Notes: a model not told the origin generated them from the sequence alone. Shown: positions 25,724-45,811, counted from the first letter of the stretch. The stretch: 64,000 nucleotides of DNA from Candidatus Sumerlaeota bacterium (GCA_017161705.1 JADFCW010000002.1:4528-68527); one strand, 5' to 3'. Numbers and translations are program-made.

Positions 25724-25768
25724 CGGGAGGCAGCATCATTCATTCTTGATGACAGAAAGGATCGTATC

Positions 25769-29211: not shown

Positions 29212-32200
29212 ATGGGAAAAGAGCCCATGTCCTGGACCGCCGCACAGCGGCGTGCAATTGAAACGCGCGGGGCCGACCTGCTCGTGGCCGCCTCGGCCGG
29301 CACGGGCAAGACCGCGGTCCTCGTCGAGCGCTGCATCCGCCTGGTAACGGATCCGATCGCCCCGATAGACCTCGATCGCCTGCTTGTGGTGACCTTCACG
29401 GAGGCGGCAGCCGCGGAAATGCGCAACCGGATCGGCGAGGCGCTGCATCGCCAGATCGCGCAGCACCCGGCGGATGCCCGGTTGCGGCGGCAGTTGATGT
29501 TGCTCGACCGCGCAATGATCTCAACGCTGCATTCCTTCGCGTTCCGCATAATTCAGGAACATTTCTTCCGCCTCGGCCTCGATCCGAATCTGGCAGTGCT
29601 GGATCCAGACGAAGCACTTCTGCTGCGCCATGAAACGCTCGACGATGTGTTCGAGGCCCTTTACACAAGCGAGAGCGAAACAGGGCAGCGGTTTGTGCGC
29701 CTGATCGAGCGCTATGGAAAGGACGGCGACGACGCGCCGGTGCGCAGCGCCGTTCTAAACCTGTGGGAGTTTCTGCGAAGTCTGCCGCGTCCGGAGCAGT
29801 GGAAGCGGCAGGTGTTGGACTCCTATCCGAAACCCGATGAAGCCCCCCCGCCTTTCGAGCGCCTTCGCCGCTGGTATGAGCCCTTTGTAGCCGCGCTGCG
29901 CGAGAACATGTTGCAGATCGAATCGGACCTCAGGGCCGCAGCGCAATGGGTCTATGATGCCGATCCCTCAACACGGGGATATACGCAATTCTTTCGAGAC
30001 GTTGCGGACGAGATGGCGAAATTGCGCGCGACGCTCCAGACCAACGGATACGACGCGTTCCACGAGGCCATCGGAAAGTGGGAATATCCGAAGTTGCGCA
30101 CAAATCCCGCCGTCGCCGACGATTTCATGCAGCAGGTGCGCGCACGGAACGACAAAATTCGCGAGGCCAAAAAGACACTTTTCAAGAACTGGTGCGTACT
30201 GTCCGGCGCGCAATGGGCAGAGACGCTGCGGGCCACACGCGCGGACGTAGAGATGATGTTCGAACTGGTCGAGCGGTTCGACGCCGCGTTTGCACGCGTC
30301 AAGCGCGAGCGCGGCGAAGTGGACTTCGGCGACCTCGAGCGGTTCTGTTTCGATTTACTGTGCGACAAGGCAGCCTCGGAAGGCGACCGCTATGCGCCGT
30401 CGGAAGTGGCGCGCAAAGAACTGCGCGATCGCTTCGAGGCGGTCCTGGTGGACGAATATCAGGATATCAATCCGCTGCAGGATGCGATCATCCGGCTGTG
30501 TGCGCGGGAAAACGATCCGCAACGGCCGCCGAACCTGTTCATGGTTGGCGATGTCAAACAGTCCATCTATCGGTTCCGGCTGGCCGAGCCGAAGTTGTTC
30601 CTGCAACGCCTGGCGGCGTTTCGCTCGGAAGGGGGCGCGGGGATCGGGCAACGCATTGACCTGTCGGAAAACCACCGAAGCCGGCCGGGGCTGCTTGCGG
30701 CGATCAATGCACTGTGCAGCCGGATCATGTCGCCCGAGGTGGGGGGAATTGTCTATGATTCGGCAGCAGAGTTACGGGGAGGATTCGATTTTCCAAAGGA
30801 AAGCAGCGGCGACATTCCGCCGCCGGTCACAGGACTGCCCGTCGAAGTTCACTTCTTCGACCGCGCGCGAGAGGAAACTATATCAGAAAGCGAGACCACT
30901 GCAGAATCGACGGAAGTTGACGAAGAAGAACCCAGGGACGGATCTGAGGCAGGGGCTTTGGCTGGTGCGGCGGTCCCGCCTGACGAACTCGAGGAAATCG
31001 AAATCGAGGCGCACTGGGTGGCCCGGCGAATCCGTGCCATGCTCAGCGGCGAGTTTTCCGTATGGGACCGCGGTGAAGGCCGTTACCGACCGGTCGCGCG
31101 CCGGGACATCGCGGTGTTGTTGCAGACGGCGGCGTATAAGGCAGCTCTATTTGTGCGGATTCTGCAGGCACACGGCATCCCTGCTTATACCGACATTCCG
31201 CCCGGGAAATTGCAGCCGGCTGAAATTCGCGACCTGTTCGCATTGCTGGAGCTGCTCGACAATCCCTGCCAGGATATTCCCCTGGCGGCAGTGCTGCGGT
31301 CGCCTCTGGTGCGCCTGAGCGAGGATGATCTGGCGCGCATCCGAATTCATCGCCGCGAGAGCAGCTTCTTTTCCGCCGCGCGCGCCTATTGTGAAAGCGG
31401 ACCGGAGGAACCTCTGCGCCGCCGGCTGGGGGAGTTTTTCGACCGCCTCGATCGCTGGCGGACTCTAGCCCGGCGCGGGCCCCTTGCACGCGCGCTCTGG
31501 GCCATCTACGACGAGACCGGTTATCTGGACTATGTCACGGCGATGGACGGCGGGGCCCAACGACGGGCCAACTTGATTGGGCTGTATGACCGGGCGCGCC
31601 AGTTCGACGAGTTCCGGCGGCGGGGCCTCGCGCGGTTCATTCAGTTTGTCCGCCAGCTGCAGGAAACCGAGAACCAGCTGGCAACACCGCCGGCTGTGTC
31701 GGAAGCCGACGACGTCGTGCGCGTGATGAGCATTCACAAGAGCAAGGGGTTGGAGTTTCCCGTGGTATTCCTGCCGGACATTGGCAAGAATTTCAATTTT
31801 CAAAATACGCGGGAGGACGTGGTTACCGATCGCGACCTTGGCGTGGCGCTGCGGGCCGTGGTGCCCCGGCGGAAAATCAAGTATCCAACGGTCGCGCACG
31901 CGGTGGCCTCGCGGCAGGTCAAGCGCGAGATTCTGGCCGAGAATATCCGCCTGCTGTACGTGGCGTTGACGCGCGCACGAGAAAAACTGGTTCTGTGCGG
32001 CTCGGTAAAGTTGGACAAAGCTTTGCAGGCATGGCGCCAATGCGCGGTTGCCGGGAACGACGGCCGGATTGCGCTGAGCCCCGGCGTTCTGGCATCCGCC
32101 CGCAGTTTTAGCGACTGGATCGGGCCGGCGCTGGCGCGTCTGGGCTGTTTGGGCGATCCAGCCCACCAGCCGCCGCCATCGGATACGTTATTCGCCGTCC

Positions 32201-33177
32201 ATTTTCATTGCGCCGAAGAGATTCAACGCTTGCAGACCAAAAACCTGGAGCGCGCGCGCGACGAGGAGACGTTGCGCAAGATTGCCGCGCTACAGCCGGT
32301 CGCTCCGCCCCCGCATGACCGCCAAGCGGTCGCGCGGATTTTCGAGCGCCTGACCTGGCAGTATGCCGCACGGCCGCTGACGCGCATTCGCGGAAAAATG
32401 TCGGTGTCCGAAATCAAACGGCGGTTCGAGACCGGGCGCGAAAGCGACGAGGCATTGAACGGGTGGGGCAGACAGGCAATAGCCCGCCGACCGGCGTTCA
32501 TGGCTGCGGGAACCGGCACGGCGCCCGTACTAACGGCCTCCGAGATTGGCACGGCCACACATACAGTGTTGCGCCATTTGGACCTATCGCAGCCGCCCGA
32601 CGAGGCAACGGTGCGCAGCCAGATAGCGCAGATTGCGGCGGAGGGAAAGCTCGCTGCCGCCGAGGCGGCGTGCGTGGATGCAGCAGCCATCGCCCGGTTT
32701 CTCCAGTCGCCGATAGGAACAGAAATTCGCGGAGCGCCCCATCGCGTGCAGCGCGAGATGCCGTTCAGCCTGGCGGTGCCGGCGGCCGAGATTGCGCGGC
32801 TGGAGAGGAGGCTGTCCAGCGAAATCAAGTCTAACGGGTCGGACGGGTCAGATGAGTCGGACAGGTCAGACAGCTCGGACCCCTCAGACAAATCCGATAG
32901 GATTTTTTGCAACGAGTGGGTCCACGTCCAGGGGATCGTGGACTGCTTGTTCGAGCGGCCGGAGGGGTTTGTGCTGTTGGACTTCAAGACCGACCGCGTC
33001 GAACGAGACACGGCCGAAACACGCGCCGCATTTTACCGTCCACAAATGGAGTTTTATGCCCGCGCGGTGGAAACGATTTTCCGCCGGCCTGTGGTCGAGC
33101 AAGTGCTTTACTTTCTTTCCTGCGGTGTGGCAGTGTCCATGCCTCCGAGGGACGGAGAGCGGTTTGGGAGATTTTAG
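29212..33177 (+). CDS. AddA-like UvrD-family helicase fused to a C-terminal PD-(D/E)xK nuclease
   Basis: Walker A AASAGTGKTAVL, UvrD helicase motifs, C-terminal nuclease motif GIVDCLFE...LLDFKTD. Acidic inserts and a DGSDESDRSDSSDPSDKSD low-complexity repeat. No addB-like gene is adjacent. Confidence 0.8.
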   Translation: MGKEPMSWTAAQRRAIETRGADLLVAASAGTGKTAVLVERCIRLVTDPIAPIDLDRLLVVTFTEAAAAEMRNRIGEALHRQIAQHPADARLRRQLMLLDRAMISTLHSFAFRIIQEHFFRLGLDPNLAVLDPDEALLLRHETLDDVFEALYTSESETGQRFVRLIERYGKDGDDAPVRSAVLNLWEFLRSLPRPEQWKRQVLDSYPKPDEAPPPFERLRRWYEPFVAALRENMLQIESDLRAAAQWVYDADPSTRGYTQFFRDVADEMAKLRATLQTNGYDAFHEAIGKWEYPKLRTNPAVADDFMQQVRARNDKIREAKKTLFKNWCVLSGAQWAETLRATRADVEMMFELVERFDAAFARVKRERGEVDFGDLERFCFDLLCDKAASEGDRYAPSEVARKELRDRFEAVLVDEYQDINPLQDAIIRLCARENDPQRPPNLFMVGDVKQSIYRFRLAEPKLFLQRLAAFRSEGGAGIGQRIDLSENHRSRPGLLAAINALCSRIMSPEVGGIVYDSAAELRGGFDFPKESSGDIPPPVTGLPVEVHFFDRAREETISESETTAESTEVDEEEPRDGSEAGALAGAAVPPDELEEIEIEAHWVARRIRAMLSGEFSVWDRGEGRYRPVARRDIAVLLQTAAYKAALFVRILQAHGIPAYTDIPPGKLQPAEIRDLFALLELLDNPCQDIPLAAVLRSPLVRLSEDDLARIRIHRRESSFFSAARAYCESGPEEPLRRRLGEFFDRLDRWRTLARRGPLARALWAIYDETGYLDYVTAMDGGAQRRANLIGLYDRARQFDEFRRRGLARFIQFVRQLQETENQLATPPAVSEADDVVRVMSIHKSKGLEFPVVFLPDIGKNFNFQNTREDVVTDRDLGVALRAVVPRRKIKYPTVAHAVASRQVKREILAENIRLLYVALTRAREKLVLCGSVKLDKALQAWRQCAVAGNDGRIALSPGVLASARSFSDWIGPALARLGCLGDPAHQPPPSDTLFAVHFHCAEEIQRLQTKNLERARDEETLRKIAALQPVAPPPHDRQAVARIFERLTWQYAARPLTRIRGKMSVSEIKRRFETGRESDEALNGWGRQAIARRPAFMAAGTGTAPVLTASEIGTATHTVLRHLDLSQPPDEATVRSQIAQIAAEGKLAAAEAACVDAAAIARFLQSPIGTEIRGAPHRVQREMPFSLAVPAAEIARLERRLSSEIKSNGSDGSDESDRSDSSDPSDKSDRIFCNEWVHVQGIVDCLFERPEGFVLLDFKTDRVERDTAETRAAFYRPQMEFYARAVETIFRRPVVEQVLYFLSCGVAVSMPPRDGERFGRF
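32848..32885 (+). repeat. Hexamer (TCGGAC/TCAGAC) tandem array inside the addA-like coding sequence, left arm of an inverted pair
   Basis: GTCAGATGAGTCGGACAGGTCAGACAGCTCGGAC encodes the Ser-Asp repeat. Confidence 0.6.
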
Positions 33178-33202
33178 GCTTTAGCCCTTGGATTCAAGTG
33201 AA

Positions 33203-33240
33203 CAAAGTCCGACCTGTCCGACTTGTCCGACTCGTCTGAC
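33203..33240 (-). repeat. Right arm of the inverted hexamer-array pair (GTCCGAC x3 to x4) in the addA-larA-like spacer
   Basis: The reverse complement GTCAGACGAGTCGGACAAGTCGGACAGGTCGGAC is about 85% identical to 32848-32885. Confidence 0.6.
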
Positions 33241-33292
33241 GCGCGTCCTTTCCCCAGAAATCCGCGCCCCAAAACCGCCGGAGGAACGATTG

Positions 33293-34600
33293 ATGAAATA
33301 CACGCTATGTTATGGCCGCGAAACCCTGACGTTGGATCTTCCCGATGATCTTTGCCGTCGGGTAATCCAGCCCAGTTTTCCGCCGGCCATTCCCGACCCG
33401 GATGCGGCCATAACGCGCTGCCTCGATGATCCGGTCGGCACACCGCCGTTGTCGAAGATTCTCGAAGGCCGACGCCGGATTGTCGTGGTCATCCCCGATG
33501 CAACCCGCGCCGGAGCCATACCTCTTTATGTCGGTCCGCTGCTTCGCTATTTACGCGCCCACGGGGTATCGCGCGAGCGCGCAACCCTGCTCTCGGCCAC
33601 AGGCGCCCACGGCCTGCACAGCGAGGCCCAGCGCGCCGCGCTGGTCGGCCCGGAAATTGCCGCCCAGTGGACCGTCGAAGACCACGACTGCGATCGGGGG
33701 AACGTCGAGATCGAGCCGCTCGACGCGGAAACACCCGTGGCCGTGGACCGCCATGCGCTGGAGGCCGACTGTCTGATTCTGGCCGGACAAATCAGTTTTC
33801 ATTACTGTGCAGGATTCGGCGGCGGGCGCAAGCTGATTGCCCCCGGGTTGTGCGGGCGCGCAACGGTTCACGCTCTCCATCGCCGGACGCTTGCCAACAT
33901 TGACGCTGACGGCAACTGGCACAGCCGCACGGGCGTCCTCCACCACAATCCGTTTCACGAGGCAATGCTGGCCGTTGCGCGGCGCGTCGGGCCGCGTTTC
34001 ACGCTCCATGCAACATTCGGTTTGGGCAACCAGCTGCTAGGGGTCGCGGCGGGCGATCTGGTCAAGGCACATGTAGCCGCCTGCCTGCAATATGCGCAGA
34101 TTTTCACCTGTCCTGTTCCCGAACGCCTGCCGTTGGTGGTGGCCTCGTGCGGCGGATGGCCGCTGGACGGCAATCTGTATCAGGCGCACAAGGCATTCGA
34201 CAACGCCTTTCGCGCCGTGCAGCGCGGGGGAACGATTCTCCTGCTGGCCGAATGCAGCGGCGGCTGGGGGCCCGAGGCGTTTGTCCGCTGGCTGGCCATT
34301 CCCACCCTGGCCGAGCATCGCCAGCGCCTGCGCGCGGAATTCCAAGTCGAAGGCCACACCACGTATGCGTTCAAATGGAAAGCCACGCAATGCCGCGTGA
34401 TTATCGTGAGCCACGTGCTGGACGAACGCATAACCGCAGGCGATGCACCCGCGTGGCTTCGCGGCGGCCCCTCGCCATTTCAGATCGAAATCGTCGGCAC
34501 AATCGGCGAAGCGCTGGAGCGGCTGGGCGCCGGCGGCCGCCGCCTGCCGTATTATCTGATGCCCAACGGCGCGGCCTGCCTGCCCGAAGTTACCGGATAG
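33293..34600 (+). CDS. LarA-like (DUF2088 / lactate racemase family) protein
   Basis: GGAGG RBS. Start trimmed to MKYTLCYGRETLTL. The N-terminal domain has a Rossmann-like IVVVIPD motif and conserved His residues typical of LarA-family 2-hydroxyacid racemases. Confidence 0.65.
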   Translation: MKYTLCYGRETLTLDLPDDLCRRVIQPSFPPAIPDPDAAITRCLDDPVGTPPLSKILEGRRRIVVVIPDATRAGAIPLYVGPLLRYLRAHGVSRERATLLSATGAHGLHSEAQRAALVGPEIAAQWTVEDHDCDRGNVEIEPLDAETPVAVDRHALEADCLILAGQISFHYCAGFGGGRKLIAPGLCGRATVHALHRRTLANIDADGNWHSRTGVLHHNPFHEAMLAVARRVGPRFTLHATFGLGNQLLGVAAGDLVKAHVAACLQYAQIFTCPVPERLPLVVASCGGWPLDGNLYQAHKAFDNAFRAVQRGGTILLLAECSGGWGPEAFVRWLAIPTLAEHRQRLRAEFQVEGHTTYAFKWKATQCRVIIVSHVLDERITAGDAPAWLRGGPSPFQIEIVGTIGEALERLGAGGRRLPYYLMPNGAACLPEVTG

Positions 34601-35906
34601 TTTCTCCTGGACGCTCATCCACGACACGTCGGGCCTTGCCCGTGAACCGCTCGAGCGATTTGGGTTCGACCAGCCGCACGTCCACATCCACGCCGAGGCC
34701 CGAACGAAGCGCTTCGCGGATTTCTTCCTCCACCGCCCGCATGTGCCCTATCTTGTCGTTGAACAGCGCTTCGGTGACCTCCACGCGCACTTCGAGGTGT
34801 TCCAGCGCTCCCCTGCGGGTGCGGACAATCTGATAGTGCGGCTGCGCATGCTCGATGTCGAGAAGGATACTTTCGATCTGCGAAGGGAAAACGTTCACTC
34901 CGCGGATGACCATCATGTCGTCGGTGCGCCCGACGACTTTGGACATCCGCGCCAGCGTTCGCCCGCAGGCGCAGGGCTCGCGCGTCACCGACGCCAGATC
35001 GCCTGTGCGGTAGCGGATCAGGGGAACCGCCTCGCGTGTCAAGGTTGTGAAAACCAGTTCGCCGACCTCGCCGTCGGCGACCGGTTCGAGCGTCTTTGGG
35101 TCGAGCACTTCCACGATATAGTGGTCTTCGGCAATGTGCATGCCGTTCTTGTACAAGCACTCATAGGAGACGCCCGGCCCGCACAGTTCGCTCAGACCGT
35201 AGTTGTCGGTGGCCACGATGCCCAGGAGCGACTCGATCTGGCGGCGGATACCTTCGCTCCAGGGCTCGCCGCCGAAAAGCCCCCATTTGAGGGCGAGCTG
35301 CCCGCGCCCGACGCCCATCTCCTGGGCCGTTTCGGCAATGTGCAGCGCGTAGGTCGGCGTGCCAATCAGAGCGGTAGTGCCGAAGTCGCGCAGGAACTGA
35401 ACCTGTCGCGGCGTATTGCCGCTGGAAATCGGCAGGACGAGGGCGCCGACCCGCTCCAGTCCGGCGTGCAGACCGAACCCGCCGGTGAACAAACCGTAGC
35501 CAAAAGAAATCTGCGCAATATCCGAGGCCGTGACTCCCGCCGCCGTAGCCAGGCGAGCGCACAGTTCCGCCCACGTGTCGAGATCGCGCCGCGTGTAGCC
35601 GACGATGGTGGACTTGCCGCGCGAGGTGCCCGACGAGCCGTGCACGCGCACCACTTCGCGCAACGGCACGGCAAACATCCCGAAGGGATAGTTGTCCATG
35701 AAATCCTGTTTGACGGTGAACGGAAGCCGGCGCAGGTCGTCCAGACCGCGAATGTCCGCGGGCCGGAGACCGGCGGCGTTCAGTCTGGCCTGGACGTAGG
35801 GCAGGTGTTCGGCCGCGCGCCGGACTTGCTCGCGGAGCAATTCGCCCTGGCGACACTCAAGCGTCGGCCGATCCACTTGTTCCCATGCAGGGTCCCAGAT
35901 AGTCAA
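34590..35906 (-). CDS. paaK: Phenylacetate-CoA ligase
   Basis: Collinear with E. coli PaaK across its full length (DNYPFGMFAVP, GSSGTSGKSTIVGYT, YGLFTGGFG). TTG start with a GGGAGAG RBS. Confidence 0.8.
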   Translation of the reverse strand: MTIWDPAWEQVDRPTLECRQGELLREQVRRAAEHLPYVQARLNAAGLRPADIRGLDDLRRLPFTVKQDFMDNYPFGMFAVPLREVVRVHGSSGTSRGKSTIVGYTRRDLDTWAELCARLATAAGVTASDIAQISFGYGLFTGGFGLHAGLERVGALVLPISSGNTPRQVQFLRDFGTTALIGTPTYALHIAETAQEMGVGRGQLALKWGLFGGEPWSEGIRRQIESLLGIVATDNYGLSELCGPGVSYECLYKNGMHIAEDHYIVEVLDPKTLEPVADGEVGELVFTTLTREAVPLIRYRTGDLASVTREPCACGRTLARMSKVVGRTDDMMVIRGVNVFPSQIESILLDIEHAQPHYQIVRTRRGALEHLEVRVEVTEALFNDKIGHMRAVEEEIREALRSGLGVDVDVRLVEPKSLERFTGKARRVVDERPGETIR

Positions 35907-36026: not shown

Positions 36027-37784
36027 TTAATTATCCAGGTTGCCCAGAACCCACTGGTCGAACCCGAACCAGTTCTTCGGCAGGTTCATGGCCGCCTGGC
36101 CGGCGACAACGTCTTTGGCCAGCTGCTCGTCGGCAGTCAATTTCAACTTGGCCTCGACCTTTTCGATTTTCGAGTCGGTCGAAACGTCAAAGGTCGGCGT
36201 GACGACCACCACCAGTTCGACCTCCCTCTGGCTGTTGGTTTCGCCGCCGAAGACCCAGCCGATCACCGGGAGCTTCGAAAAGAAGGGAACGCCGTTCCGC
36301 GACTTCACAGTTTCGTGGCGGGTAATGCCTGCCAACACAAACGGCTGGTCGGGGAAAACACGCACATAGGAGTCCGTGAAGCGATGCGAGATGATCGGCT
36401 GTCCCTGCGGTGTGTAGCCGTCGAAATCGGTCACATGGAGCGACAGAGCCACTTCGGCCGATTCGAGGCCCACGTAGGGCACCGCGCCGATGAACACTCC
36501 GACCGTGCCCGACTTGACGTAATTGACCACGCGGTCGTGGAACTGCGGAATGACCGCATCGCGCCGGTTGGCCGCCGCTGTTCCGATCGCTGGTTCGAGA
36601 GCCACCGACCCGGCCGCCGGTGCGTTGGGCAGCCACGTGTTCATCGGCTGGTCCACAAAGCCGGTGTTGAGATAGCGCGAGTTGTCGGGGTTGTGCTCGA
36701 TGTTGAAAGCCAGTTGCTGGTCCACGGCGGCCAATTCGCCAAGTGTGCCGCTCTTGGCCGTCAGCGTGCCGCGGTTGACCAGTCGGGCCTTCCCCTTGCT
36801 GGCGAGAAAGTCCACATAGGCTGACGTGGCTACGCCGTGAAGATTGGCCCAGCGGAAATGGCCGACATAGTCGGAGCCGGCGGCGCCGGCAAATTCAAAC
36901 AAGTCCGCGCCGGCGCTGTTCTTCCAGGTGACAAAGTCCAGTCCCAGCTTCAGATCGTTCTTCACGTTGACCTCGTAGATCGCGATGTCGAGTTTGATCT
37001 GGCTGGGTGGAATGTCGCACATTTGGCAGCCGTAAGGGAACAAGCCGTTGACAACGGCCGGTTCGCCCGTGAACTGGATGGCGTTGCCGAGGTCGTCCCA
37101 GCAGAAGGTCTCCATGGGGCTTCGGAAGAACTGGAGGAGATTGAGAAGCGGGCCGGCGTCGCGGAACTTCGGGCGGTAGTAGGCGTGCACGCGCCCGTCG
37201 TTGTTTTCGGTGACCCACTTTTCATCGAGAGCTTTGAGGGCGTTGACAACGTATTCCAATTGGAACTTGGGGCAAACGACCTGGAGAAAGTTCTCCTTCG
37301 TTTCGAAGTCCTGGAGGACGTCGGCAAAACCGCCTTCCTTGCCGCAGACGTTGCGGAAGACACCGCGCATTTCGCGCGGGTTGACATTTTTCAGCGGCAC
37401 GAGCGCGGTCACATAGTCGTTGAGCAGGCGCTTCTGATTGACCCGCAGCACTCGCACCGCGCCGGTGTCGGGACTGAGGTTGATCTGCTCGTCCTGATTG
37501 ATATAGTCGTCAATGCGGCTGTTGGTTTGGTCGGTGTTGAAGGCGCGGGTGAACTGCGGCTGGCTGGCGTTGTTGGTGATGTCCACGGGGCTGGCATCGC
37601 CCAGGCCCGGCCGCTGGTCAATGCCGGTGTCGCGGTCAATCTCACGAACGTAAACGCCCAGCCGCGGATCGAACCGGAAGGCCTTGTCCTGCTGGCGGGG
37701 CGGCCGTATGGCCACTCCGCCAGGAGCCGTGCCGGCGAGGGTCGGAAGCATCAGGATGATCAGGATTGCTTCGAGTCGTTTCAT
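36027..37784 (-). CDS. Secretin-family outer-membrane channel protein (GspD/PilQ-like), paralog 1
   Basis: AAAGGAG RBS, signal peptide, C-terminal secretin motif NGVPFFSKLPVIGWVFGG...EVELVVVVTPTF. Ends FGFDQW like its neighbour. Confidence 0.75.
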   Translation of the reverse strand: MKRLEAILIILMLPTLAGTAPGGVAIRPPRQQDKAFRFDPRLGVYVREIDRDTGIDQRPGLGDASPVDITNNASQPQFTRAFNTDQTNSRIDDYINQDEQINLSPDTGAVRVLRVNQKRLLNDYVTALVPLKNVNPREMRGVFRNVCGKEGGFADVLQDFETKENFLQVVCPKFQLEYVVNALKALDEKWVTENNDGRVHAYYRPKFRDAGPLLNLLQFFRSPMETFCWDDLGNAIQFTGEPAVVNGLFPYGCQMCDIPPSQIKLDIAIYEVNVKNDLKLGLDFVTWKNSAGADLFEFAGAAGSDYVGHFRWANLHGVATSAYVDFLASKGKARLVNRGTLTAKSGTLGELAAVDQQLAFNIEHNPDNSRYLNTGFVDQPMNTWLPNAPAAGSVALEPAIGTAAANRRDAVIPQFHDRVVNYVKSGTVGVFIGAVPYVGLESAEVALSLHVTDFDGYTPQGQPIISHRFTDSYVRVFPDQPFVLAGITRHETVKSRNGVPFFSKLPVIGWVFGGETNSQREVELVVVVTPTFDVSTDSKIEKVEAKLKLTADEQLAKDVVAGQAAMNLPKNWFGFDQWVLGNLDN

Positions 37785-37853
37785 GGTGGTTTCTCCTTTG
37801 CATGGGTGGAACCGTCTGGAAACTGCCTCACACAAGGCGCGAGGGCTGGTCTC

Positions 37854-39341
37854 TTACTGGCCGCGGTCAAAACCCCATTGGTCGAATCCAAAGGGCGTCG
37901 GCGGCATGGGAATCGGTTGCTCGCCCTTGGCTTTGGCCATGACGTCGGCATCGGCAGGCCGGACCGGACTGTCATATTTGTCTATGGTGGGCTTGATGAC
38001 ACAGACGACCATCGTTTTTTCGGCGCCGATGGTTTCACTGCCGAACGTCCAGCCCAGTACAGGGATCGAGCCCAGAATGGGAATTTTGGCCGCGTGCTTG
38101 GCCTTGCGGTCGCGGATCAATCCGCCGATGACCAGCTCCTGGCCGCTGGGCACCTGGGCGCGATTGGAGAACTGGCGCGAGGCTAAAACGGGTTCGCCGC
38201 GGCTGTCGTAGCCGACGAGAGTAACGACGCGCGCGAGAATGTCGAGGTCCACCAGCTCCAGGCTGATCACCGGCATTACATCGAGGAAGATGCCCGTGCG
38301 AACGGGATCAATGGCCAGTTGGGGCGGGGCTTGCGCCGAGACGCCCAATGTTTGAGCCGCGGCGGCCACAGCGCCGGCGGCCAGAGGCGTCAACTGCTCG
38401 GCCGTGGTGCGCGGCTGCGTTTCCCCGGTCACTTTGCGGTCGAGAACGTTGTTCTGCGTGACCCGATAAAAGAGCACGCTTTCTCCGGTGGCCACTTGCG
38501 CCGCGCGGTTGTTCATGGCCACGACTTTGGTTGCCGTGAGGACTTTCGCCTTGCCGCGTTCGACTAGGAAATCGAAGTAGGCCGAAGGATAATCCATAAA
38601 GTATCCGGAGCCGCTGTCGGTGCCGCTGTCGCGGTCTACATTGTGGATGCGCAAATACTGATAGCGGCTGCCGCCGGCAAACAGAGCGCGCCCAGGGCCG
38701 TTCTTCCATGCATGGAAGTCGAAGCCGAACCGCCCGTCGTTGGTCAGTTTGACATCATAGACGGTGACCTCGATGAGAACCTGCGGCGAAGGAACATCGG
38801 CGGCGGATAGGGCGGCGTTGGCTGCGTCGCAGCCGCTGGGCACGCCGAACAGCAGAACCGAATTCGTCTCGATGTCAGGATACAGAATGTCCTGGCTGCC
38901 CGCGTAGTAAGCGCCTAATCCCGCCAGACATTGCGCCGTGCGGTTTTTGGCCCGGTAAAGAATATATTTCGAGCCGGGGGCGCTGGTGATTTTTGGCCGG
39001 TCGAGCTCCCGAATCAGTTGCTCGTAGTAAGGCATCTGATATTCGGGCGCCGTGACCAGGATTTTTCCCTTGTTGCCGTCGGGATGAACAAATGTGTAGA
39101 TCATCCCCTCTTCCGCTTCGGCCAGAAGTTCGGGAAAGTTGATGATCTCATAGGGGTTGCAGTTGTGGACTTCGAACACTCTGCAGACATACTGATTGAC
39201 TTGGGCTTTGCTCGATGTCCGCAGCACCTTGACAACATTCTGCTTCATCGCATCCGGGGCGGGCGGGGTCAGTTCCGCCGCCGGCAACGAGAAAGCCGCA
39301 ACTGCCAGCGTGACAAGCAAGGCGACATGCTTGATGACCAT
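37854..39341 (-). CDS. Secretin-family outer-membrane channel protein, paralog 2
   Basis: GGAGGG RBS, signal peptide, canonical secretin C-terminus ELVIGGLIRDRKAKHAAKIPILGSIPVLGWTFGSE...TMVVCVIKPTI. Lies 70 bp upstream of paralog 1 on the same strand. Confidence 0.75.
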   Translation of the reverse strand: MVIKHVALLVTLAVAAFSLPAAELTPPAPDAMKQNVVKVLRTSSKAQVNQYVCRVFEVHNCNPYEIINFPELLAEAEEGMIYTFVHPDGNKGKILVTAPEYQMPYYEQLIRELDRPKITSAPGSKYILYRAKNRTAQCLAGLGAYYAGSQDILYPDIETNSVLLFGVPSGCDAANAALSAADVPSPQVLIEVTVYDVKLTNDGRFGFDFHAWKNGPGRALFAGGSRYQYLRIHNVDRDSGTDSGSGYFMDYPSAYFDFLVERGKAKVLTATKVVAMNNRAAQVATGESVLFYRVTQNNVLDRKVTGETQPRTTAEQLTPLAAGAVAAAAQTLGVSAQAPPQLAIDPVRTGIFLDVMPVISLELVDLDILARVVTLVGYDSRGEPVLASRQFSNRAQVPSGQELVIGGLIRDRKAKHAAKIPILGSIPVLGWTFGSETIGAEKTMVVCVIKPTIDKYDSPVRPADADVMAKAKGEQPIPMPPTPFGFDQWGFDRGQ

Positions 39342-39744
39342 GGTACTATTCCCTCCTGCCGTAAAGTGGCGTTTCATAACTGGACAAGTTCCGGCACGTT
39401 GAGTTTGCACGCCGGTTCAACCTTTCGGTTACCCATGCTGCGGAATCCTCCCTGATTCCGCTCCCTCCGCCTTTCCATTGCTCGATTGGATTGGCGCCGG
39501 GGCCTCAGGGGCCGGCTGTATTGACGGCGTCGGGCGGCGCGCTACCGTCGTTTTCTCAGTTTTCGTGTTTCAGCGCGCGCGGAAGCGGCCGCCGGCTCTG
39601 GAAAGAACGGGGAATGATGATCTGCACCTCGCAGACCGCCACGATCCCCTTGTCAGGTGAAACCCGAACGTGAACTTGGGAAAGTATCCCCGGACTTGAC
39701 GGAGTTCATCCCCGCTCACCTTCCCCCGAGACGATACCGTGGGC

Positions 39745-41610
39745 TTACCGCACCCCATGAAAGCATTTGTGCAGATGATCCTCGGGCATTTTCCGCGTGA
39801 TCAGCGACACCACAACGGTCGCGACCACGGCCAGAGGAAAGGCAATGACCAGCGCGTCGAGAAACCGCCAGGTTCCCTGCAGAATGAGCGAGGGATTGGG
39901 ATGGTTGAGAAAGGGGAGGAGGAGCGCGGCGAACCGGGCGTTGACCATCTGCACGCAAAACAGCCAGAACATGCTGACAAAGAATCCCACGCACATGCCG
40001 GCAATGGCGCCGGCTTTGGTGATCCAGCGAAAATACAGCCCGCCGAAATACATCGGCAGAAAAGAAGATGCACACAAACCAAAAAACAGCGCCGTCGCCG
40101 CCGGGATAATGCTGCCCGGCAATTTCACGGCCAGACCCAACGTCACCGCAATGCCCAGCACAATCCCGAATCGCGTGATCAGCACAGTGGTGCCGCGGCG
40201 CTCGCCGCCGAGAATGGTTTGCTCGTAAATATCGCGGCCCAGAGCGGTTCCAATCGTATGGAACTGCGAGCTTTGCGTAGACATGGCCGCCGACAGGAGG
40301 GTCAGAGCAAACAGCGCCACGAACCACGAGGGCAGCGCGGACGTAATGAAGGTCGGAATGACAAGGTCCGAATCGCCGCCGGCGCGCACCATGGCAATCT
40401 CGCCGCCGTGCTGGAAAAAATACACATTGGACAGCGCGCCCACGACAAACGCCACGCCGGTCATCATCAGAATGAAAATCCCCCCGGTCGGCACCGCGCG
40501 GTTCAACTCGCGGTTGCTTTTTACAGTCATGAAACGCACCACCAGCTGCGGCTGGGCCAGAACGCCGATCCCGACGCCGAGAATCACTGTCGTGACCATG
40601 AAGCACCAAAACGGCGTGTTGAACGCGGGCATATCCGTCCAGCCGCGCCAGCCCCCGCGTTGCAGCCGAGCCACGACGGCCATACTGGCCACGCCCTTGG
40701 GGTCGGTGGCGGCAATGGCGCCGAATTTCTGGAGCAACTGGTCCTCCTTTGGATTTTCCGCCAAATACTTTTTCCTGGCTTCTTCGCTCATCGGTTTGAG
40801 TTTGTCCCTGAGCGCGGCGGCGGCCAGGCCCATATCCGTCACTGACGCCAGGGTCAGCTGCTCGCCGGTCTTCTGGTTGTAGTTTTCGACAGCTTGTGCC
40901 GCGTTTGCCTCCAAGTCCGCCGGCAGCCGGGACAACGCTTCGTGGCCGGCCACAACTCCACCCAGTCTCCCATAGGAATAGAGAATCAGAATCACCATTC
41001 CGGCGAGCATGATTCCGCCCTGCAAGGCATCGGTCCACATAACCCCCTTGAGCCCGCCGGCGATCACATAGAGGGCCACAAGCACCGTGTAAATGAGCAT
41101 GGCCATTTGCAAAGCTGTGGCCAGAGTCATGGCCTGATCCATGTGAAAGGTCTTGACGATAAACGTTCCCGCGCCGCGCAGAACGGCCGAGGCATAGACA
41201 GGCATGAAGAGAAAAATAACGAGGGCGGAGAAGAACTGGATGAATTTGCTTTGATACCGCCGGCCCAGAAACTCGGGGAACGTGTGGGCGTCAAGGTTGT
41301 GGCCCATGCGCCGCGTGCGCTTGCCGAAAAACACAAAGGCCACGAAAATCCCAACGAAGATATTGAAGAATGTCAGCCACAGCAGACCCATCCCGAAGTT
41401 TGCCGCCGCCCCTCCGAAGCCTACAATGGCCGACGTGCTGATAAACGTCGCCCCATAGGACAACGCCATAACGACCGGATGAGCGCGGCGCCCCGCCACC
41501 AGATAATCCGCGGTTGTCTTAGTCTTCGTATAAGCATAAAATCCGATCCAAGCGCACGCCAGAAGATAAATCACCGTAATGATGATCAGGGTGGCGTCCT
41601 GCTCGCTCAT
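39745..41610 (-). CDS. Sodium:solute symporter family transporter (large subunit)
   Basis: 13 to 14 TM helices, SSS-family N-terminus, AGGGAGGG RBS. Confidence 0.8.
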   Translation of the reverse strand: MSEQDATLIIITVIYLLACAWIGFYAYTKTKTTADYLVAGRRAHPVVMALSYGATFISTSAIVGFGGAAANFGMGLLWLTFFNIFVGIFVAFVFFGKRTRRMGHNLDAHTFPEFLGRRYQSKFIQFFSALVIFLFMPVYASAVLRGAGTFIVKTFHMDQAMTLATALQMAMLIYTVLVALYVIAGGLKGVMWTDALQGGIMLAGMVILILYSYGRLGGVVAGHEALSRLPADLEANAAQAVENYNQKTGEQLTLASVTDMGLAAAALRDKLKPMSEEARKKYLAENPKEDQLLQKFGAIAATDPKGVASMAVVARLQRGGWRGWTDMPAFNTPFWCFMVTTVILGVGIGVLAQPQLVVRFMTVKSNRELNRAVPTGGIFILMMTGVAFVVGALSNVYFFQHGGEIAMVRAGGDSDLVIPTFITSALPSWFVALFALTLLSAAMSTQSSQFHTIGTALGRDIYEQTILGGERRGTTVLITRFGIVLGIAVTLGLAVKLPGSIIPAATALFFGLCASSFLPMYFGGLYFRWITKAGAIAGMCVGFFVSMFWLFCVQMVNARFAALLLPFLNHPNPSLILQGTWRFLDALVIAFPLAVVATVVVSLITRKMPEDHLHKCFHGVR

Positions 41611-41624: not shown

Positions 41625-41804
41625 TTATGGTTCAAACGGTTTCTCCACTTCCTTTTCGCTCTGTCTCCACGCGACCTCCTCGCGTTTGGGCGCCTCGTCA
41701 CCGCCTCGGTTGAAGTTAACTGCGCCGTAGATCAGGCACAGCGCAGCCGAGGCCAGACACAATCCATAGGCCAAAGCCACCGACGTTCCTTCGATTCCGA
41801 ACAT
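41625..41804 (-). CDS. Putative solute:sodium symporter small subunit (DUF4212-like)
   Basis: 59 aa with a single TM helix. AAGGAG RBS. Lies 14 bp upstream of the symporter gene, an arrangement seen in known SSS two-gene pairs. Confidence 0.6.
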   Translation of the reverse strand: MFGIEGTSVALAYGLCLASAALCLIYGAVNFNRGGDEAPKREEVAWRQSEKEVEKPFEP

Positions 41805-41930
41805 GGTTTCTGCTCCTTCCCCCCACAACAGGCCGCCATCTCGGCTGCATTGCTGCCAATAACCAGGACCGCACCCCCAACCTTGCCTCAACCGTGGGGC
41901 CGCGTCCGACCAATGGGCCGGACCGTACCG

Positions 41931-43256
41931 TTACGTTTCCGGTTCGTGCTCGATATCTTCGAGCTTGCCGGCAAAGTAGGCATCGTACGCGCCCATGTCA
42001 AAGAAGCCGTGGCCGCTGAGCTCGAAAACGATCGTCTCCGGCTTGTTCTCCCTTTTGCAACGGAGCGCCTCGTTGCGCGCGACAAGAATGGCATGAGCCG
42101 ATTCGGGCGCAGGCACAATGCCTTCCGTGCGCGCAAATTGCACCGCCGCGTCGAATACGTCGGTCTGATAGACCGCCACCGGCTCGACAATCTTGTCGGC
42201 CACCAGCCGGCTGATGATCGGCGCCATGCCGTGGTAACGAAGCCCGCCGGCGTGAATGCCCGCCGGCACAAAGTTGTGGCCAAGCGTGAACATCTTCAGC
42301 AGCGGCGTCATTCCCGCCGTGTCGCCGAAATCATAGTCGAACTTCCCGCGCGTCATACTCGGGCACGCCTTCGGCTCGACGCCGAGGAACCGGATGGGCT
42401 TGCCCTCGAGCTTCTCGCCGATAAACGGCAGGATCAGCCCGCCAAAATTGCTCCCGCCGCCGCAGCAGCCAATCAGCACGTCGGCCGTTGTCCCCGCCAT
42501 CTTCAACTGCTTTTGGGTTTCCAGACCGATGACCGTCTGGTGCAACAGAACATGATTCAGAACACTGCCCAAGGAGTAGTTCACGCCGTCGTGCGTGGCC
42601 GCGTCTTCGACCGCCTCGCTGATGGCGATGCCCAGACTGCCGAGGCATCCGGGGTCTTTGGCCAGAACGGCGCGTCCGGCATTGGTTCTGTCGGTGGGGC
42701 TGGCAAACACCTCGGCGCCCCACGTATGCATCAGCGAGCGGCGATACGGTTTTTGCTGATAGCTGATCTTGACCATATAGACGGTGCACTGCAGACCGAA
42801 CTTGCAGCAGGCAAAGGACAGCGCGCTGCCCCACTGGCCGGCACCCGTCTCGGTCGAGAGGCGTTTGATTCCAGCCTTTTTGTTGTAATAAGCTTGAGCG
42901 ACGGCCGTGTTGGGTTTGTGGCTGCCGGCTGGCGACGTCCCTTCGTATTTGTAAAAGATTTTCGCCGGCGTTTCGAGCTGCGCCTCCCAGTGCGTGGCGC
43001 GGATCAGCGGTGTTGGCCGCCACAAGCTAAGAATCTCCAGAACCTCATCGGGAATAGGAATCCACCGCTCCTTGCTGACCTCCTGCTCGATCAGCGCCAT
43101 GGGGAAGATGGCCGACAGAGCTTCGGGCCCGATCGGCTGTTTGGTTGCCGGATTGAGCGGAGGGTCCACCGGGGTTGGCAGATCCGGCAGCACGTTATAC
43201 CACTGCGCAGGCATTTCGGAGACCGGCAGATAGATCGAGTCGGATTTCATCGGCAT
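41931..43256 (-). CDS. TrpB2-type tryptophan synthase beta-like PLP enzyme
   Basis: N-terminal [21 protein letters not shown] is characteristic of TrpB2. Other PLP-fold motifs support the call, including GSHKPNTA (the PLP-binding lysine) and the GGGSN loop. Confidence 0.8.
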
Positions 43257-43472
43257 TTTCAGGCATTTCCTTTCCATGTAATGATGATGGACAATAGCAT
43301 TTTCTCTCTCCCCCCGAATGGGACTCTGATAGCGCCCCATTCCAGGCACTCCTGCACATAGGCTATTGTCTTTCCAAGGGGCTAATAAACTACAGCCAAG
43401 CCGCAAGGTGAGGGATGCTTTGCGGCTTTGTCAAAAGAATTTTGCGGGAAAAGAAAGGAAGTATTTGGCGGA

Positions 43473-44937: not shown

Positions 44938-45762
44938 TCATTCTTTTCCCGTGTCCGGCTGTTTCAGGGTTTCCTTCCACTCGTTTCGCACGTTCAGTTC
45001 GGGAATTGTCTGCCACTCATTCCAGCGGTGGAGAATCCGGCTTTCGTCGTCATTGGCCGAATCGAGCCCCAGCCAGCCGATGGCTGCGTCGAGCCATTCC
45101 TGCGGGTAGGTTTCAATCTCCATGCCGAAGACAAACCAGTGCAGTTCGGCGCCGATACTCAGCGGCTGAAGCCGCCCGTCGTCCCACAGAACGCCGTTGC
45201 GCACAATGCCGCGGCGATACATCCGCGACCATGGATGCTCGATGTCGGTATAGTGGTTGCCGGCGATCATCTCGTTTTTCACGCGCGAACCGTAAAGCGG
45301 CCCGACACCGCCTTCCAGCCGCCACTCGCGCCAGATGCCGGCGCCCCGGCGATCCAAACCGACACTCTTGCCCTCGAAAAAAACCACACCCAACTGCGCC
45401 AAGACCGTCGCGCGTGCTTTGGCTCCTGCGCTGCGATAGCCGTGGGGTACATGGAACCGAACCCGCAGCAGATCGCACAGGTCCAGCGCGCGATCGAGTA
45501 AAAAACCGACGATCACCGGCCGCTCCGGATACGTGCGCTCGGGCGGTGCGGGAACGATGCCGGGATGAGTCCTCGGGCCGGCCGGCGCGGTGTCGGATGA
45601 ATCCGGTTGTACGGCTGACGGTCTCGCGGGCAAGGTGTCGGCAGGTACTTCCGCTGCGTTTGCCGACGATTGTCCGCCGGAAAGTTGAACGGCAGCAGTG
45701 ATCGAAACGGCGATGAGTGTTGCCCAAAAGTCCGCCGGCCGCACGGAAGCAATACCTTTCAT
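44938..45762 (-). CDS. Secreted hypothetical protein
   Basis: Start trimmed to MKGIASVRPADFWATLIAVSITAAV (signal peptide, GGGGAG RBS). The upstream 107 codons of the track ORF are Arg/Thr-rich antisense-like junk that overlaps the end of the sulfatase gene. Confidence 0.45.
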   Translation of the reverse strand: MKGIASVRPADFWATLIAVSITAAVQLSGGQSSANAAEVPADTLPARPSAVQPDSSDTAPAGPRTHPGIVPAPPERTYPERPVIVGFLLDRALDLCDLLRVRFHVPHGYRSAGAKARATVLAQLGVVFFEGKSVGLDRRGAGIWREWRLEGGVGPLYGSRVKNEMIAGNHYTDIEHPWSRMYRRGIVRNGVLWDDGRLQPLSIGAELHWFVFGMEIETYPQEWLDAAIGWLGLDSANDDESRILHRWNEWQTIPELNVRNEWKETLKQPDTGKE

Positions 45763-45811
45763 GTCTGCAAGTCTCCCCGTTTGGATTCGCCGCGGAACGC
45801 CCGCGACCGTT

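What the first reader, a model, noticed from the sequence alone, without database searches (positions are those of the whole stretch)
36027..39341. Two tandem secretin paralogs with a shared FGFDQW C-terminus and no adjacent secretion ATPase, pilins or inner-membrane platform
Both proteins have signal peptides and canonical secretin C-domains, but only about 585 and 495 aa. They are 70 bp apart on the same strand and differ strongly in their N-terminal halves. Nothing typical of T2SS, T4P, T3SS or Tad machinery is encoded within 10 kb on either side. The neighbours are paaK, a symporter and trpB2. A heteromeric or alternating secretin channel, or a secretin pair dedicated to an unlinked system, would be unusual. 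A polysaccharide or large-enzyme export system in a glycan-degrading bacterium is one possible role.
Basis: partly seen in the sequence, partly recalled or inferred. Interest (0 to 1): 0.6.

Follow-up and report, generated by a model that had tools for sequence, protein, structure and literature searches.

The report
Conserved orphan two-secretin gene cassette
Two neighbouring genes for outer-membrane "secretin" pore proteins are real, and they belong to an undescribed gene pair kept strictly together in at least three bacterial phyla, with no secretion motor nearby, which suggests a pore built from two different secretins.

Summary
Window 37854-39341 (-) encodes a 495-aa secretin (SecA-type). 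Window 36027-37784 (-) encodes a 585-aa secretin (SecB-type). They lie 69 bp apart, are 26% identical, and both end in FGFDQW. The window comes from a Sumerlaeota (BRC1) MAG.

The pair is ancient. Across the 81 sequences examined (80 loci plus the window; Sumerlaeota, Planctomycetota and, more distantly, Lentisphaerota), every A gene with enough downstream DNA is followed by a B gene. A and B form two clean clades. Their divergences track each other (r = 0.91). Cassettes duplicate only as whole units.

A dedicated lipoprotein gene precedes the pair in 63 of those 81 sequences, but not in the window's clade.

Both secretins have only N2/N3-like domains plus the secretin domain. They have no N0, N1 or S domain.

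GspE/GspF homologues lie within 10 kb in only one locus, which is the chance level. Nine loci embed the cassette next to pst phosphate-transporter genes, several in a full phoB-phoR-cassette-pstSCAB operon. The window links it to an SSF symporter and PaaK.

The best reading is a two-subunit secretin complex that serves PilB/PilC machines encoded elsewhere. A stand-alone uptake channel remains possible. This is a new variant of a known kind.

The parts
37854..39341 (-). SecA-type secretin gene (495 aa). It has a signal peptide, two N-domains (aa 50-113 and 125-181), a secretin domain (aa 187-454), a short C-terminal helix and an FGFDQW tail.
   Evidence: Translation. Pfam Secretin 2.9e-26 and a weak Secretin_N hit. 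AF2 model. Foldseek top hits are GspD and InvG. hhalign aligns aa 96-458 with E. coli GspD 241-598.
36027..37784 (-). SecB-type secretin gene (585 aa). It has a signal peptide, a disordered N-terminal extension (aa 20-117), two N-domains (aa 124-186 and 199-256), a secretin domain (aa 262-533), C-terminal helices and an FGFDQW tail.
   Evidence: Translation. Pfam Secretin 7.8e-18. AF2 model. hhalign aligns aa 128-537 with E. coli GspD 194-598.
37785..37853 (-). 69-bp spacer between SecA and SecB. No terminator-like site on the minus strand lies in it, so the two genes are probably co-transcribed.
   Evidence: Coordinates. Terminator scan. A-B gaps in related loci, measured between maximal ORFs, are mostly -4 to 112 bp.
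37872..37889 (-). C-terminal FGFDQW motif of SecA (aa 485-490).
   Evidence: The motif [FWY]G[FY]DQW[LIV][LF]D is present in most A proteins.
36051..36068 (-). C-terminal FGFDQW motif of SecB (aa 573-578).
   Evidence: The motif is nearly universal in B proteins (G574 and D576 invariant; F575 and W578 at least 90% conserved).
37476..37526 (-). Family-wide conserved SecB N-terminal motif TNSRIDDYINQDEQINL (aa 87-103). It sits in a predicted disordered segment just before the first N-domain.
   Evidence: Alignment A2 shows S89, Y94, Q97 and N102 invariant. pLDDT is below 50.
37641..37694 (-). SecB extension motif QQDKAFRFDPRLGVYVRE (aa 31-48). It occurs only in the lipoprotein-less clade that includes the window, and it weakly resembles the C-terminal KAYFVNPYLGxVRKE motif of the cassette lipoprotein.
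   Evidence: Alignment A2 columns 60-130. hhalign against the lipoprotein profile gives E = 0.13, probability 0.5%, which is not significant.
39342..39744 (-). 403-bp intergenic region upstream of SecA. It holds no lipoprotein gene, unlike most related loci. A GGAGG ribosome-binding site precedes the SecA ATG.
   Evidence: Sequence. tblastn with three lipoprotein homologues finds nothing credible in the window.
39745..41610 (-). Sodium:solute symporter (SSF) gene, same strand, directly upstream of SecA. A small (about 59-aa) accessory membrane-protein ORF lies within 41625-41891.
   Evidence: Pfam SSF 5.9e-47. Small ORF. The same order PALP - Symport_access - SSF - A - B occurs in L001.
41931..43406 (-). 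TrpB2-like PLP enzyme gene at the head of the same-strand gene string.
   Evidence: Pfam PALP 1e-36.
34590..35906 (-). PaaK-like aryl-acetate-CoA ligase gene, same strand, 120 bp downstream of SecB.
   Evidence: Pfam AMP-binding_C_2 2e-31. PaaK-like genes lie within 3.5 kb of the cassette in 8 sequences from three lineages.

Best explanation
SHOWN. The two genes are intact, selected secretin genes. They are one instance of an ancient, self-contained outer-membrane gene cassette. The gene order is always the short secretin A followed by the longer secretin B, and a dedicated lipoprotein gene usually comes first. The cassette occurs in Sumerlaeota and Planctomycetota, and a more distant two-secretin form occurs in Lentisphaerota.

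A and B split before these lineages diverged. They have kept their order, diverge in parallel, and are duplicated only as a unit. Several genomes hold two or three deeply diverged cassettes.

Both proteins consist of two N2/N3-type ring domains plus the secretin barrel. They lack the N0 domain that canonical GspD and PilQ use to dock on the inner-membrane platform.

INFERRED. A and B assemble into a single outer-membrane secretin complex, either as a mixed ring or as two associated rings. The shared C-terminal GFDQWLLD tail and the lipoprotein (a beta-sandwich plus a PepSY-like domain) act in targeting or stabilisation, as S-domains and pilotins do in known secretins. In the window's clade the lipoprotein gene is not adjacent.

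INFERRED. The complex is the outer-membrane gate for type-IV-filament-type machines (PilB/PilC sets) that these genomes encode in multiple copies elsewhere. Individual cassettes are wired into particular regulons: Pho/pst in several Planctomycetota and Sumerlaeota, and an amino-acid uptake and arylacetate cluster in the window.
For: Secretin identity comes from Pfam, a PDB profile search, the AF2 models, Foldseek and hhalign.

Pairing: in all 80 fetched loci, every A gene with enough downstream DNA is followed by a B gene on the same strand.

The NJ tree has clade A with 67 sequences, all in position 1, and clade B with 60 sequences, all in position 2. The Lentisphaerota pairs form a separate clade with its own position-1/position-2 split.

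Pairwise divergences of A and B correlate (Pearson r = 0.91). Cassettes within the same genome are 33-44% identical in both A and B. dN/dS is 0.04-0.05.

The lipoprotein family was found in 63 of the 81 sequences examined (80 loci plus the window). It has an invariant lipobox Cys and no Pfam or PDB match beyond weak beta-sandwich and PepSY hits.

On missing motors, GspE/GspF homologues lie within 10 kb in only one locus, and none are in the window. No T2SSE, T2SSF or pilin family appears in the neighbour census.

Unlinked motors do exist. The 16 Sumerlaeota MAGs carry 1-8 pilB, 1-7 pilC, 0-7 'gspD' and 0-2 'pilQ', with gspC = 0 in all (PMC8092238 supplement).

The C-terminal motif is conserved in B, in most A, and in the second Lentisphaerota secretin.
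Against: No physical evidence shows that A and B interact. No multimer prediction could be run.

As far as I know, all structurally characterised secretin rings are homo-oligomers, so a hetero-complex would be unprecedented.

The lack of N0 argues against canonical docking to a PilP/GspC-type platform.

The recurrent position between phoBR and pstSCAB, and next to SSF or Liv-type importers, fits an uptake-channel role at least as well.

The window's clade lacks the adjacent lipoprotein, so that protein is either dispensable or encoded elsewhere.
Confidence: 0.45

Rival explanations
1. Stand-alone uptake channel. The A/B complex, with or without the lipoprotein, is a motor-independent gated outer-membrane conduit. 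It has been co-opted for import of nutrients: phosphate-containing polymers or DNA in the pst-linked cassettes, and peptides or amino acids in the SSF/Liv/PaaK-linked ones. Functionally it sits where OprP/OprO or PhoE porins sit in proteobacterial pho clusters.
For: The cassette lies between phoB-phoR(PnpS-like) and pstS-pstC-pstA-pstB on one strand in several loci, and nine loci carry pst genes downstream (L028, L032, L033, L041, L044, L045, L050, L053, L071). NCBIfam places PstS, PstC, PstA and PstB above their curated cut-offs.

The window and L001 have SSF symporter - A - B on the same strand. L002 has a Liv-type ABC importer - PaaK - lipoprotein - A - B.

The downstream census is dominated by ABC-importer parts. 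There is no linked ATPase or platform in all but one locus and no N0 domain. Genomes hold several deeply diverged cassettes, as with specialised porins or receptors.
Against: No secretin is known to act as a dedicated, motor-free nutrient channel, and an ungated pore of secretin width would breach the outer-membrane barrier.

Most cassettes (about 85%) have heterogeneous, unrelated neighbours. The pst-linked loci may descend from a single ancestral arrangement.

Anammox planctomycetes already encode OprP-type phosphoporins (PMC3422733). Pho control could equally drive secretion, as with the Pho-regulated Hxc T2SS of P. aeruginosa (my own knowledge).
Confidence: 0.25
2. Two independent homo-oligomeric secretins. 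A and B each form their own ring and serve two different unlinked machines, for example a T4P-like and a T2SS-like system. They are kept adjacent only for co-regulation.
For: All solved secretin rings are homo-oligomers (one search list; my own knowledge). Sumerlaeota genomes carry many PilB/PilC sets. A and B differ in their N-terminal extension and conserved motifs.
Against: Independent channels would not be expected to keep strict 1:1 pairing and order in every locus where both could be seen, to diverge in lock-step (r = 0.91), and to duplicate only as pairs. Both also share the same special C-terminal tail.
Confidence: 0.15
3. Polysaccharide or slime (or large glycan-degrading enzyme) export pore. 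This would be analogous to the secretin 'nozzles' reported for cyanobacterial and myxobacterial slime secretion.
For: Secretins have been implicated in the secretion of non-protein polymers (PMC12475490). The window is rich in sulfatases, glycosidases and glycosyltransferases.
Against: Glycan-related genes are not conserved next to the cassette in other genomes. None appears among the recurring neighbour clusters, and only two glycosyltransferase hits appear in the upstream census. No Wza/Wzc, synthase or T2SS genes are linked.
Confidence: 0.1
4. Remnant of an integrated filamentous phage, with pIV-type export secretins.
For: The size (about 500 aa) and the absence of a T2SS are reminiscent of inovirus pIV. 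Distant pIV-like hits exist in IMG/VR.
Against: The viral hits are only 21-23% identical and partial. No Zot/pI ATPase, coat or replication genes are nearby. The pair is vertically conserved with housekeeping neighbours across phyla. GC content is uniform across the region.
Confidence: 0.02

Closest known systems
T2SS secretin GspD (PulD/EpsD/XcpQ)
   Same: It is the best sequence, profile and fold match. N2/N3-type ring domains plus the complete secretin barrel align with E. coli GspD 194/241-598. An amphipathic helical loop motif (IPxLGxIPxLGxxFG) is present.
   Different: There is no N0 or N1 domain and no S-domain. TIGR02517 scores (116 and 65 bits) are far below the 351-bit cut-off. No gspC-O genes are nearby. 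Two obligatorily paired paralogues replace a single gene.
Tad secretin RcpA/CpaC with its lipoprotein pilotin TadD, and the T4b secretins BfpB/TcpC
   Same: These are small (about 450-550 aa) secretins without a canonical N0, and they work with a dedicated outer-membrane lipoprotein or partner. One distant homologue in the SecA search carries a source annotation as CpaC (P0111).
   Different: No tad, bfp or tcp genes are linked. The partner lipoprotein here is a beta-sandwich plus PepSY-like protein, not a TPR protein. RcpA (8odn) and BfpB (9u5s) are among the weakest PDB matches. A and B themselves are not lipoproteins.
T4aP secretin PilQ in a pilMNOPQ operon
   Same: It shares the secretin domain. 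Sumerlaeota are reported to encode T4P components in all MAGs (PMC8092238).
   Different: There are no AMIN or N0 domains and no pilMNOP neighbours. A canonical pilM-N-O-P-Q-pilB-pilT-pilC operon with a 911-aa PilQ looks entirely different (L082).
Phosphate-selective porins OprP/OprO (and PhoE) encoded next to pst/pho genes
   Same: The genomic position is the same: an outer-membrane protein gene set between phoBR and pstSCAB. This is an analogy of position only.
   Different: The fold and family are unrelated (16-stranded trimeric porins against multimeric secretins). No functional data exist for the cassette.
Pho-regulated Hxc type II secretion system of Pseudomonas aeruginosa (my own knowledge)
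   Same: It is a secretin-containing system under phosphate-starvation control.
   Different: Hxc is a complete T2SS gene cluster with one (lipo)secretin. Here only the outer-membrane components are present.

Membership tests
Secretin superfamily (Pfam PF00263) | C-terminal secretin domain scoring above the Pfam gathering threshold | tested here: met
   SecA 92.5 bits and SecB 65.1 bits against a cut-off of 27.5. hhalign probability 98.9% and 98.5% to E. coli GspD. Foldseek E = 1e-17 to GspD and InvG.
Secretin superfamily | Sec signal peptide plus at least one N3-type ring domain immediately before the secretin domain | tested here: met
   Signal peptides are visible in the translations. Beta-alpha-beta-beta-alpha domains occur at SecA 125-181 and SecB 199-256.
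T2SS secretin GspD (TIGR02517 equivalog) | Whole-protein score above the NCBIfam cut-off | tested here: not met
   116.4 and 64.8 bits against a cut-off of 351.35.
T2SS secretin GspD | N0 (STN-like) and N1 domains that dock GspC | tested here: not met
   Alignment with E. coli GspD begins at GspD residues 241 (SecA) and 194 (SecB). Only about 27 mature residues precede the first N-domain of SecA. No STN Pfam hit was found.
T2SS secretin GspD | Encoded with gspC/E/F/G-M genes | tested here: not met
   None in the 64-kb window. GspE/F homologues occur in only one of the fetched loci.
T4aP secretin PilQ (TIGR02515) | Score above cut-off, AMIN/N0 domains and pilMNOP neighbours | tested here: not met
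   55.9 and 42.3 bits against a cut-off of 284. No AMIN or STN hits. No PilM/N/O families in the neighbour census. Compare the canonical operon in L082.
T3SS secretin SctC (TIGR02516) | Score above cut-off and an injectisome gene context | tested here: not met
   76.8 and 39.4 bits against a cut-off of 238. No T3SS genes are nearby.
Tad secretin RcpA/CpaC | N-terminal T2SS-T3SS_pil_N/BON-like domain and a tad (cpaB-F, tadZABC) context with a TPR pilotin | tested here: not met
   No such Pfam hit at E <= 1. No TadA-type ATPase was detected with GspE as query in the loci. The partner lipoprotein is not TPR.
Inovirus pIV export secretin | Located in a filamentous-phage genome with pI/Zot ATPase and coat genes | tested here: not met
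   IMG/VR holds only 21-23% identical partial matches. No phage genes flank the pair.
Hetero-oligomeric secretin complex (proposed here; no established family) | Physical co-assembly of A and B in one ring or complex | not testable with these tools
   Only genomic inference is available: strict pairing, co-divergence and duplication as a unit. No multimer prediction tool was available.
Secretin-pilotin pair | A small outer-membrane lipoprotein binding the secretin C-terminal S-domain | tested here: inconclusive
   A dedicated lipoprotein with an invariant lipobox Cys precedes the pair in 63 of the 81 sequences examined. It is about 270 aa and unrelated to known pilotins, and it is absent next to the window's pair. 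The conserved GFDQWLLD tail could be its docking site, but that is untested.

The most novel reading that the evidence does not exclude
The A/B pair, with its lipoprotein, forms a hetero-oligomeric secretin channel that works without any inner-membrane motor. It would act as a regulated outer-membrane uptake gate. Different cassette paralogues would be dedicated to different nutrient regulons, for example Pho/pst for phosphate polymers or DNA and SSF/Liv/PaaK clusters for peptides or amino acids. In Sumerlaeota, Planctomycetota and Lentisphaerota this would be a secretin lineage converted from export to import.
Probability: 0.2. Interest if true: 0.85.

Novelty: new variant of a known kind. 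Interest (0 to 1): 0.62.

Why it matters
Secretins are the universal outer-membrane gates of type II and type III secretion, type IV pili, Tad pili and filamentous-phage export. In every characterised case they are rings of a single protein encoded with, or clearly assignable to, an ATPase-driven machine.

A two-secretin module that is strictly conserved across phyla, lacks the platform-docking N0 domain, has its own novel lipoprotein, and is repeatedly placed inside phosphate-uptake operons would mean one of two things. Either it is the first heteromeric secretin architecture, or it is a secretin used independently of a motor.

It would also give a concrete molecular handle on how poorly understood, mostly uncultured lineages move large molecules across their outer membranes. 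These lineages include Sumerlaeota, Phycisphaerae, anammox Brocadiia and Lentisphaerota, and the mechanism of macromolecule uptake in Planctomycetota is described in the literature as unknown (PMC11131199).

Tried and rejected
1. Exact look-up of the window's SecA (and P0001) in the contig index returned 'not on record'. The source was instead inferred from the 96%-identical Ca. Sumerlaeia SKW40 proteins.

2. A weak tblastn hit of one lipoprotein homologue to window 47700-47831 (E = 0.002) was rejected. That ORF is a polytopic membrane protein with a CxxCH motif and is not a lipoprotein.

3. The 766-aa ORF next to the only GspE/F-containing locus (L020) was tested as a possible canonical secretin. 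It has no Pfam hit.

4. I tried to show that Sumerlaeota T4P operons have their own PilQ. P0169 sits in a canonical pilMNOPQ-pilBTC operon, but neither the cluster look-up nor my last homologue search gave a taxon. This test failed.

I therefore could not ask whether the lipoprotein ever occurs without the secretins.

6. Pfam and PDB searches of the lipoprotein gave only weak arrestin-C, MG2 and PepSY hits.

7. Literature searches for tandem, heteromeric or orphan secretins, and for secretins in Sumerlaeota, Planctomycetes or anammox bacteria, found no description of this cassette. The library covers open-access papers only.

8. The phage-origin reading was rejected.

9. No tRNA or Rfam element is in the window.

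10. The promoter and terminator scan gave nothing decisive.


Full report
**What is in the window**

Two long ORFs lie on the minus strand at 37854-39410 and 36027-37835. With the starts supported by a GGAGG ribosome-binding site and by database homologues, they encode a 495-aa protein (SecA-type, 37854-39341) and a 585-aa protein (SecB-type, 36027-37784), 69 bp apart.

Both proteins have cleavable, non-lipoprotein signal peptides. Both pass the Pfam Secretin threshold. Both score far below the curated cut-offs of every named secretin subfamily in NCBIfam: GspD, PilQ, MshL, SctC and HofQ.

They are 26% identical over about 490 residues (E = 3e-44), and both end with ...FGFDQW....

Scanning all plausible ORFs of the 64-kb window with Pfam found no secretion ATPase, platform, pilin or injectisome gene. 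tblastn with the E. coli Gsp proteins and a prepilin-motif scan also found nothing.

**Source and relatives**

SecA and SecB are 96% identical to adjacent proteins of a Candidatus Sumerlaeia MAG, SKW40. The window therefore comes from a Sumerlaeota (BRC1) genome.

A profile scan of one genome per GTDB species found 212 relatives and returned 75 loci. They come from Sumerlaeota, from Planctomycetota (Phycisphaerae, Brocadiia and others) and, at 25-28% identity, from Lentisphaerota. Five further loci came from contig look-ups.

**The pair is a conserved unit**

An all-ORF BLAST of the 80 loci shows that every SecA-type gene with enough downstream sequence is immediately followed, on the same strand, by a SecB-type gene. 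The gaps, measured between maximal ORFs, are mostly -4 to 112 bp.

In a neighbour-joining tree rooted with E. coli GspD, the 67 position-1 proteins form one clade and the 60 position-2 proteins form the sister clade. The Lentisphaerota pairs form a separate clade with its own position-1/position-2 split.

Pairwise divergences of A and B across 60 cassettes correlate with r = 0.91. Cassettes from the same genome are only 33-44% identical to each other, in A and B alike. At least nine assemblies in the list hold two or three cassettes. Cassettes therefore duplicated long ago and only as whole units.

Against the 96% relative, dN/dS is 0.036 for A and 0.054 for B.

**A third component**

In 63 of the 81 sequences examined (80 loci plus the window), a homologous ORF of about 250-330 aa sits directly upstream of SecA. 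It has a signal peptide with an invariant lipobox cysteine, a beta-sandwich-like N-terminal half and a PepSY-like C-terminal half. It has no significant Pfam family and no solved relative.

This gene is absent next to the pair in the window and in its close relatives L001 and L006. It is also absent next to the second cassette of SKW40 (L066).

In exactly the window's clade, SecB carries an extra N-terminal segment of about 60 residues. Its motif QQDKAFRFDPRLGVYVRE resembles the lipoprotein's C-terminal KAYFVNPYLGxVRKE motif, but not significantly (hhalign E = 0.13).

**Architecture**

The AF2 monomer models have mean pLDDT of 68 and 59. They show, after the signal peptide, two beta-alpha-beta-beta-alpha ring domains, a full secretin barrel with the amphipathic helical loop, and a short helical C-terminus. 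SecB additionally has a disordered N-terminal extension of about 95 residues that contains the family-wide motif TNSRIDDYxNQDEQINL.

Profile alignment places SecA 96-458 on E. coli GspD 241-598 and SecB 128-537 on GspD 194-598. That corresponds to N2/N3 plus the secretin domain. There is no counterpart of N0 or N1 and no S-domain. From established knowledge, N0 is the domain that contacts GspC or PilP.

The closest solved sequences and folds are T2SS GspD proteins, followed by InvG and PilQ. RcpA, pIV and BfpB match more weakly.

The C-terminal tail [FWY]G[FY]DQW[LIV][LF]D is nearly universal in B, present in most A, and recognisable (LGFEQFGLD) in the second Lentisphaerota secretin.

**Context across genomes**

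phmmer with E. coli GspC-O against every ORF of the 80 loci found GspE/GspF homologues in a single locus, L020, on the opposite strand. Roughly one such hit is expected by chance for about 1.5 Mb of flanks.

Prepilin-like hits are sporadic. From my own knowledge, prepilin-type proteins are numerous in these phyla, so sporadic hits are unremarkable.

Most immediate neighbours are unrelated housekeeping genes (157 singleton clusters). Three themes recur:

- **Pho/pst.** PhoB-like and PhoR/PnpS-like two-component genes lie upstream, and pstS-pstC-pstA-pstB lie downstream on the same strand. Nine loci, mainly from Planctomycetota with at least two from Sumerlaeota, carry the downstream pst genes, and several carry both halves. 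PstS, PstC, PstA and PstB score above the NCBIfam cut-offs.
- **Other importers.** The SSF symporter with its small accessory subunit lies upstream in the window, L001 and L006. A Liv-type ABC importer lies upstream in L002.
- **Arylacetate genes.** PaaK-like ligases, ACT proteins and IorA occur next to the pair in the window clade, L002, L021, L065 and Lentisphaerota.

A Pfam census of 220 flanking ORFs gave two-component domains upstream (8 members) and ABC-importer parts downstream (BPD_transp_1 in 7, PBP_like_2 in 5). No T2SSE, T2SSF, pilin or PilMNO families appeared in the lists.

**Partners elsewhere**

I could not read whole genomes. A published KEGG table for 16 Sumerlaeota MAGs shows gspC = 0 in all and gspE = 0 in 10 of 16. 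It shows 'gspD' at 0-7, 'pilQ' at 0-2, pilB at 1-8 and pilC at 1-7 per genome (PMC8092238 supplement).

Canonical T2SSs are therefore mostly absent. Many PilB/PilC sets exist that could use an unlinked outer-membrane gate.

My attempt to show that a canonical pilMNOPQ operon (L082) belongs to this phylum failed, because no taxon label was available.

**Interpretation**

It is shown that the finding is one copy of an ancient, self-contained outer-membrane cassette: (lipoprotein)-SecA-SecB.

The most economical inference from obligate pairing, fixed order, co-divergence, duplication as a unit and the shared special C-terminus is that A and B act in one complex. As far as I know, every structurally characterised secretin ring is a homo-oligomer, so this would be a new architecture.

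I rate the following as most likely (0.45): a two-subunit secretin complex that serves type-IV-filament-type machines encoded elsewhere, with individual cassettes placed under specific regulons.

The main rival (0.25) is a motor-independent channel used in nutrient uptake. The pho/pst embedding, the importer adjacency, the missing N0 and the multiple diverged paralogues per genome suggest it. Against it stand the lack of any precedent and the heterogeneous context of most cassettes.

Two independent homo-oligomeric secretins (0.15), a glycan or slime export pore (0.10; compare PMC12475490) and a phage remnant (0.02) are less likely.

**Novelty**

I found no description of this cassette in the searchable literature. 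It belongs to the secretin superfamily but fails the defining features of the GspD, PilQ, SctC, RcpA and pIV subfamilies. I classify it as a new variant of a known kind.

The window's copy is atypical only in lacking the adjacent lipoprotein gene.

Noticed in passing
window 37641-37694 (-), SecB aa 31-48: The SecB N-terminal extension exists only in the clade whose cassettes lack the lipoprotein gene. Its motif QQDKAFRFDPRLGVYVRE resembles the lipoprotein's conserved C-terminal motif (for example PQKAYFVNPYLGVVRKE). hhalign gives E = 0.13, which is not significant. It could be a transferred docking strand or a coincidence.
   Followed up: partly
window 17318-19558, 24269-25723, 25769-27295 (+), 45812-47428 (-), 53825-55684, 61078-62586: Six sulfatase genes lie in 64 kb, alongside GH43, BNR/sialidase-like, GH120-like beta-helix and several glycosyltransferase genes. 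This Sumerlaeota lineage looks specialised in sulfated glycans, although none of these genes is conserved next to the secretin cassette elsewhere.
   Followed up: partly
window 25736-27391 (-) vs 25769-27295 (+); 41850-43361 (+) vs 41931-43406 (-); 45698-47317 (+) vs 45812-47428 (-): Antisense 'shadow' ORFs are as long as, or longer than, the true genes. Only one strand of each pair has Pfam hits. A longest-ORF gene caller would mis-annotate these in this 60% GC genome.
   Followed up: yes
window 47468-48238 (+): A 256-aa polytopic membrane protein has a single CxxCH haem-binding-type motif (CISCHG) in a loop and no Pfam family.
   Followed up: no
window 6287-8788 (-), 55823-57574 (-), 20537-21658 (-): Three large ORFs (833, 583 and 373 aa) with coding-like GC3 have no Pfam match.
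   Followed up: no
window 27554-28993 (-) and 34590-35906 (-): Two PaaK-like AMP-binding ligase paralogues lie within 8 kb, flanking an AddA-like 1321-aa UvrD/PD-(D/E)XK helicase-nuclease (29212-33177) and a LarA-like gene (33188-34600).
   Followed up: no
L074-L080 (Lentisphaerota), about 8200-11400 in each locus: These loci carry a distant two-secretin tandem without the lipoprotein, flanked by a PaaK-like ligase (upstream) and an IorA-like indolepyruvate oxidoreductase subunit (downstream). Only the second secretin carries the GFEQFGLD tail.
   Followed up: partly
L082 1-16900: A canonical pilM-N-O-P-Q-pilB-pilT-pilC operon of unknown taxon is preceded by an array of four Roadblock/LC7 and two PatA_N genes. 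This is an unusual regulatory neighbourhood for a T4P operon.
   Followed up: no
L028, L041, L044, L045, L050, L071 (about 5-17 kb in each locus): The cassette sits inside a single-strand phoB - phoR - lipoprotein - SecA - SecB - pstS - pstC - pstA - pstB string, in both Planctomycetota and Sumerlaeota.
   Followed up: yes
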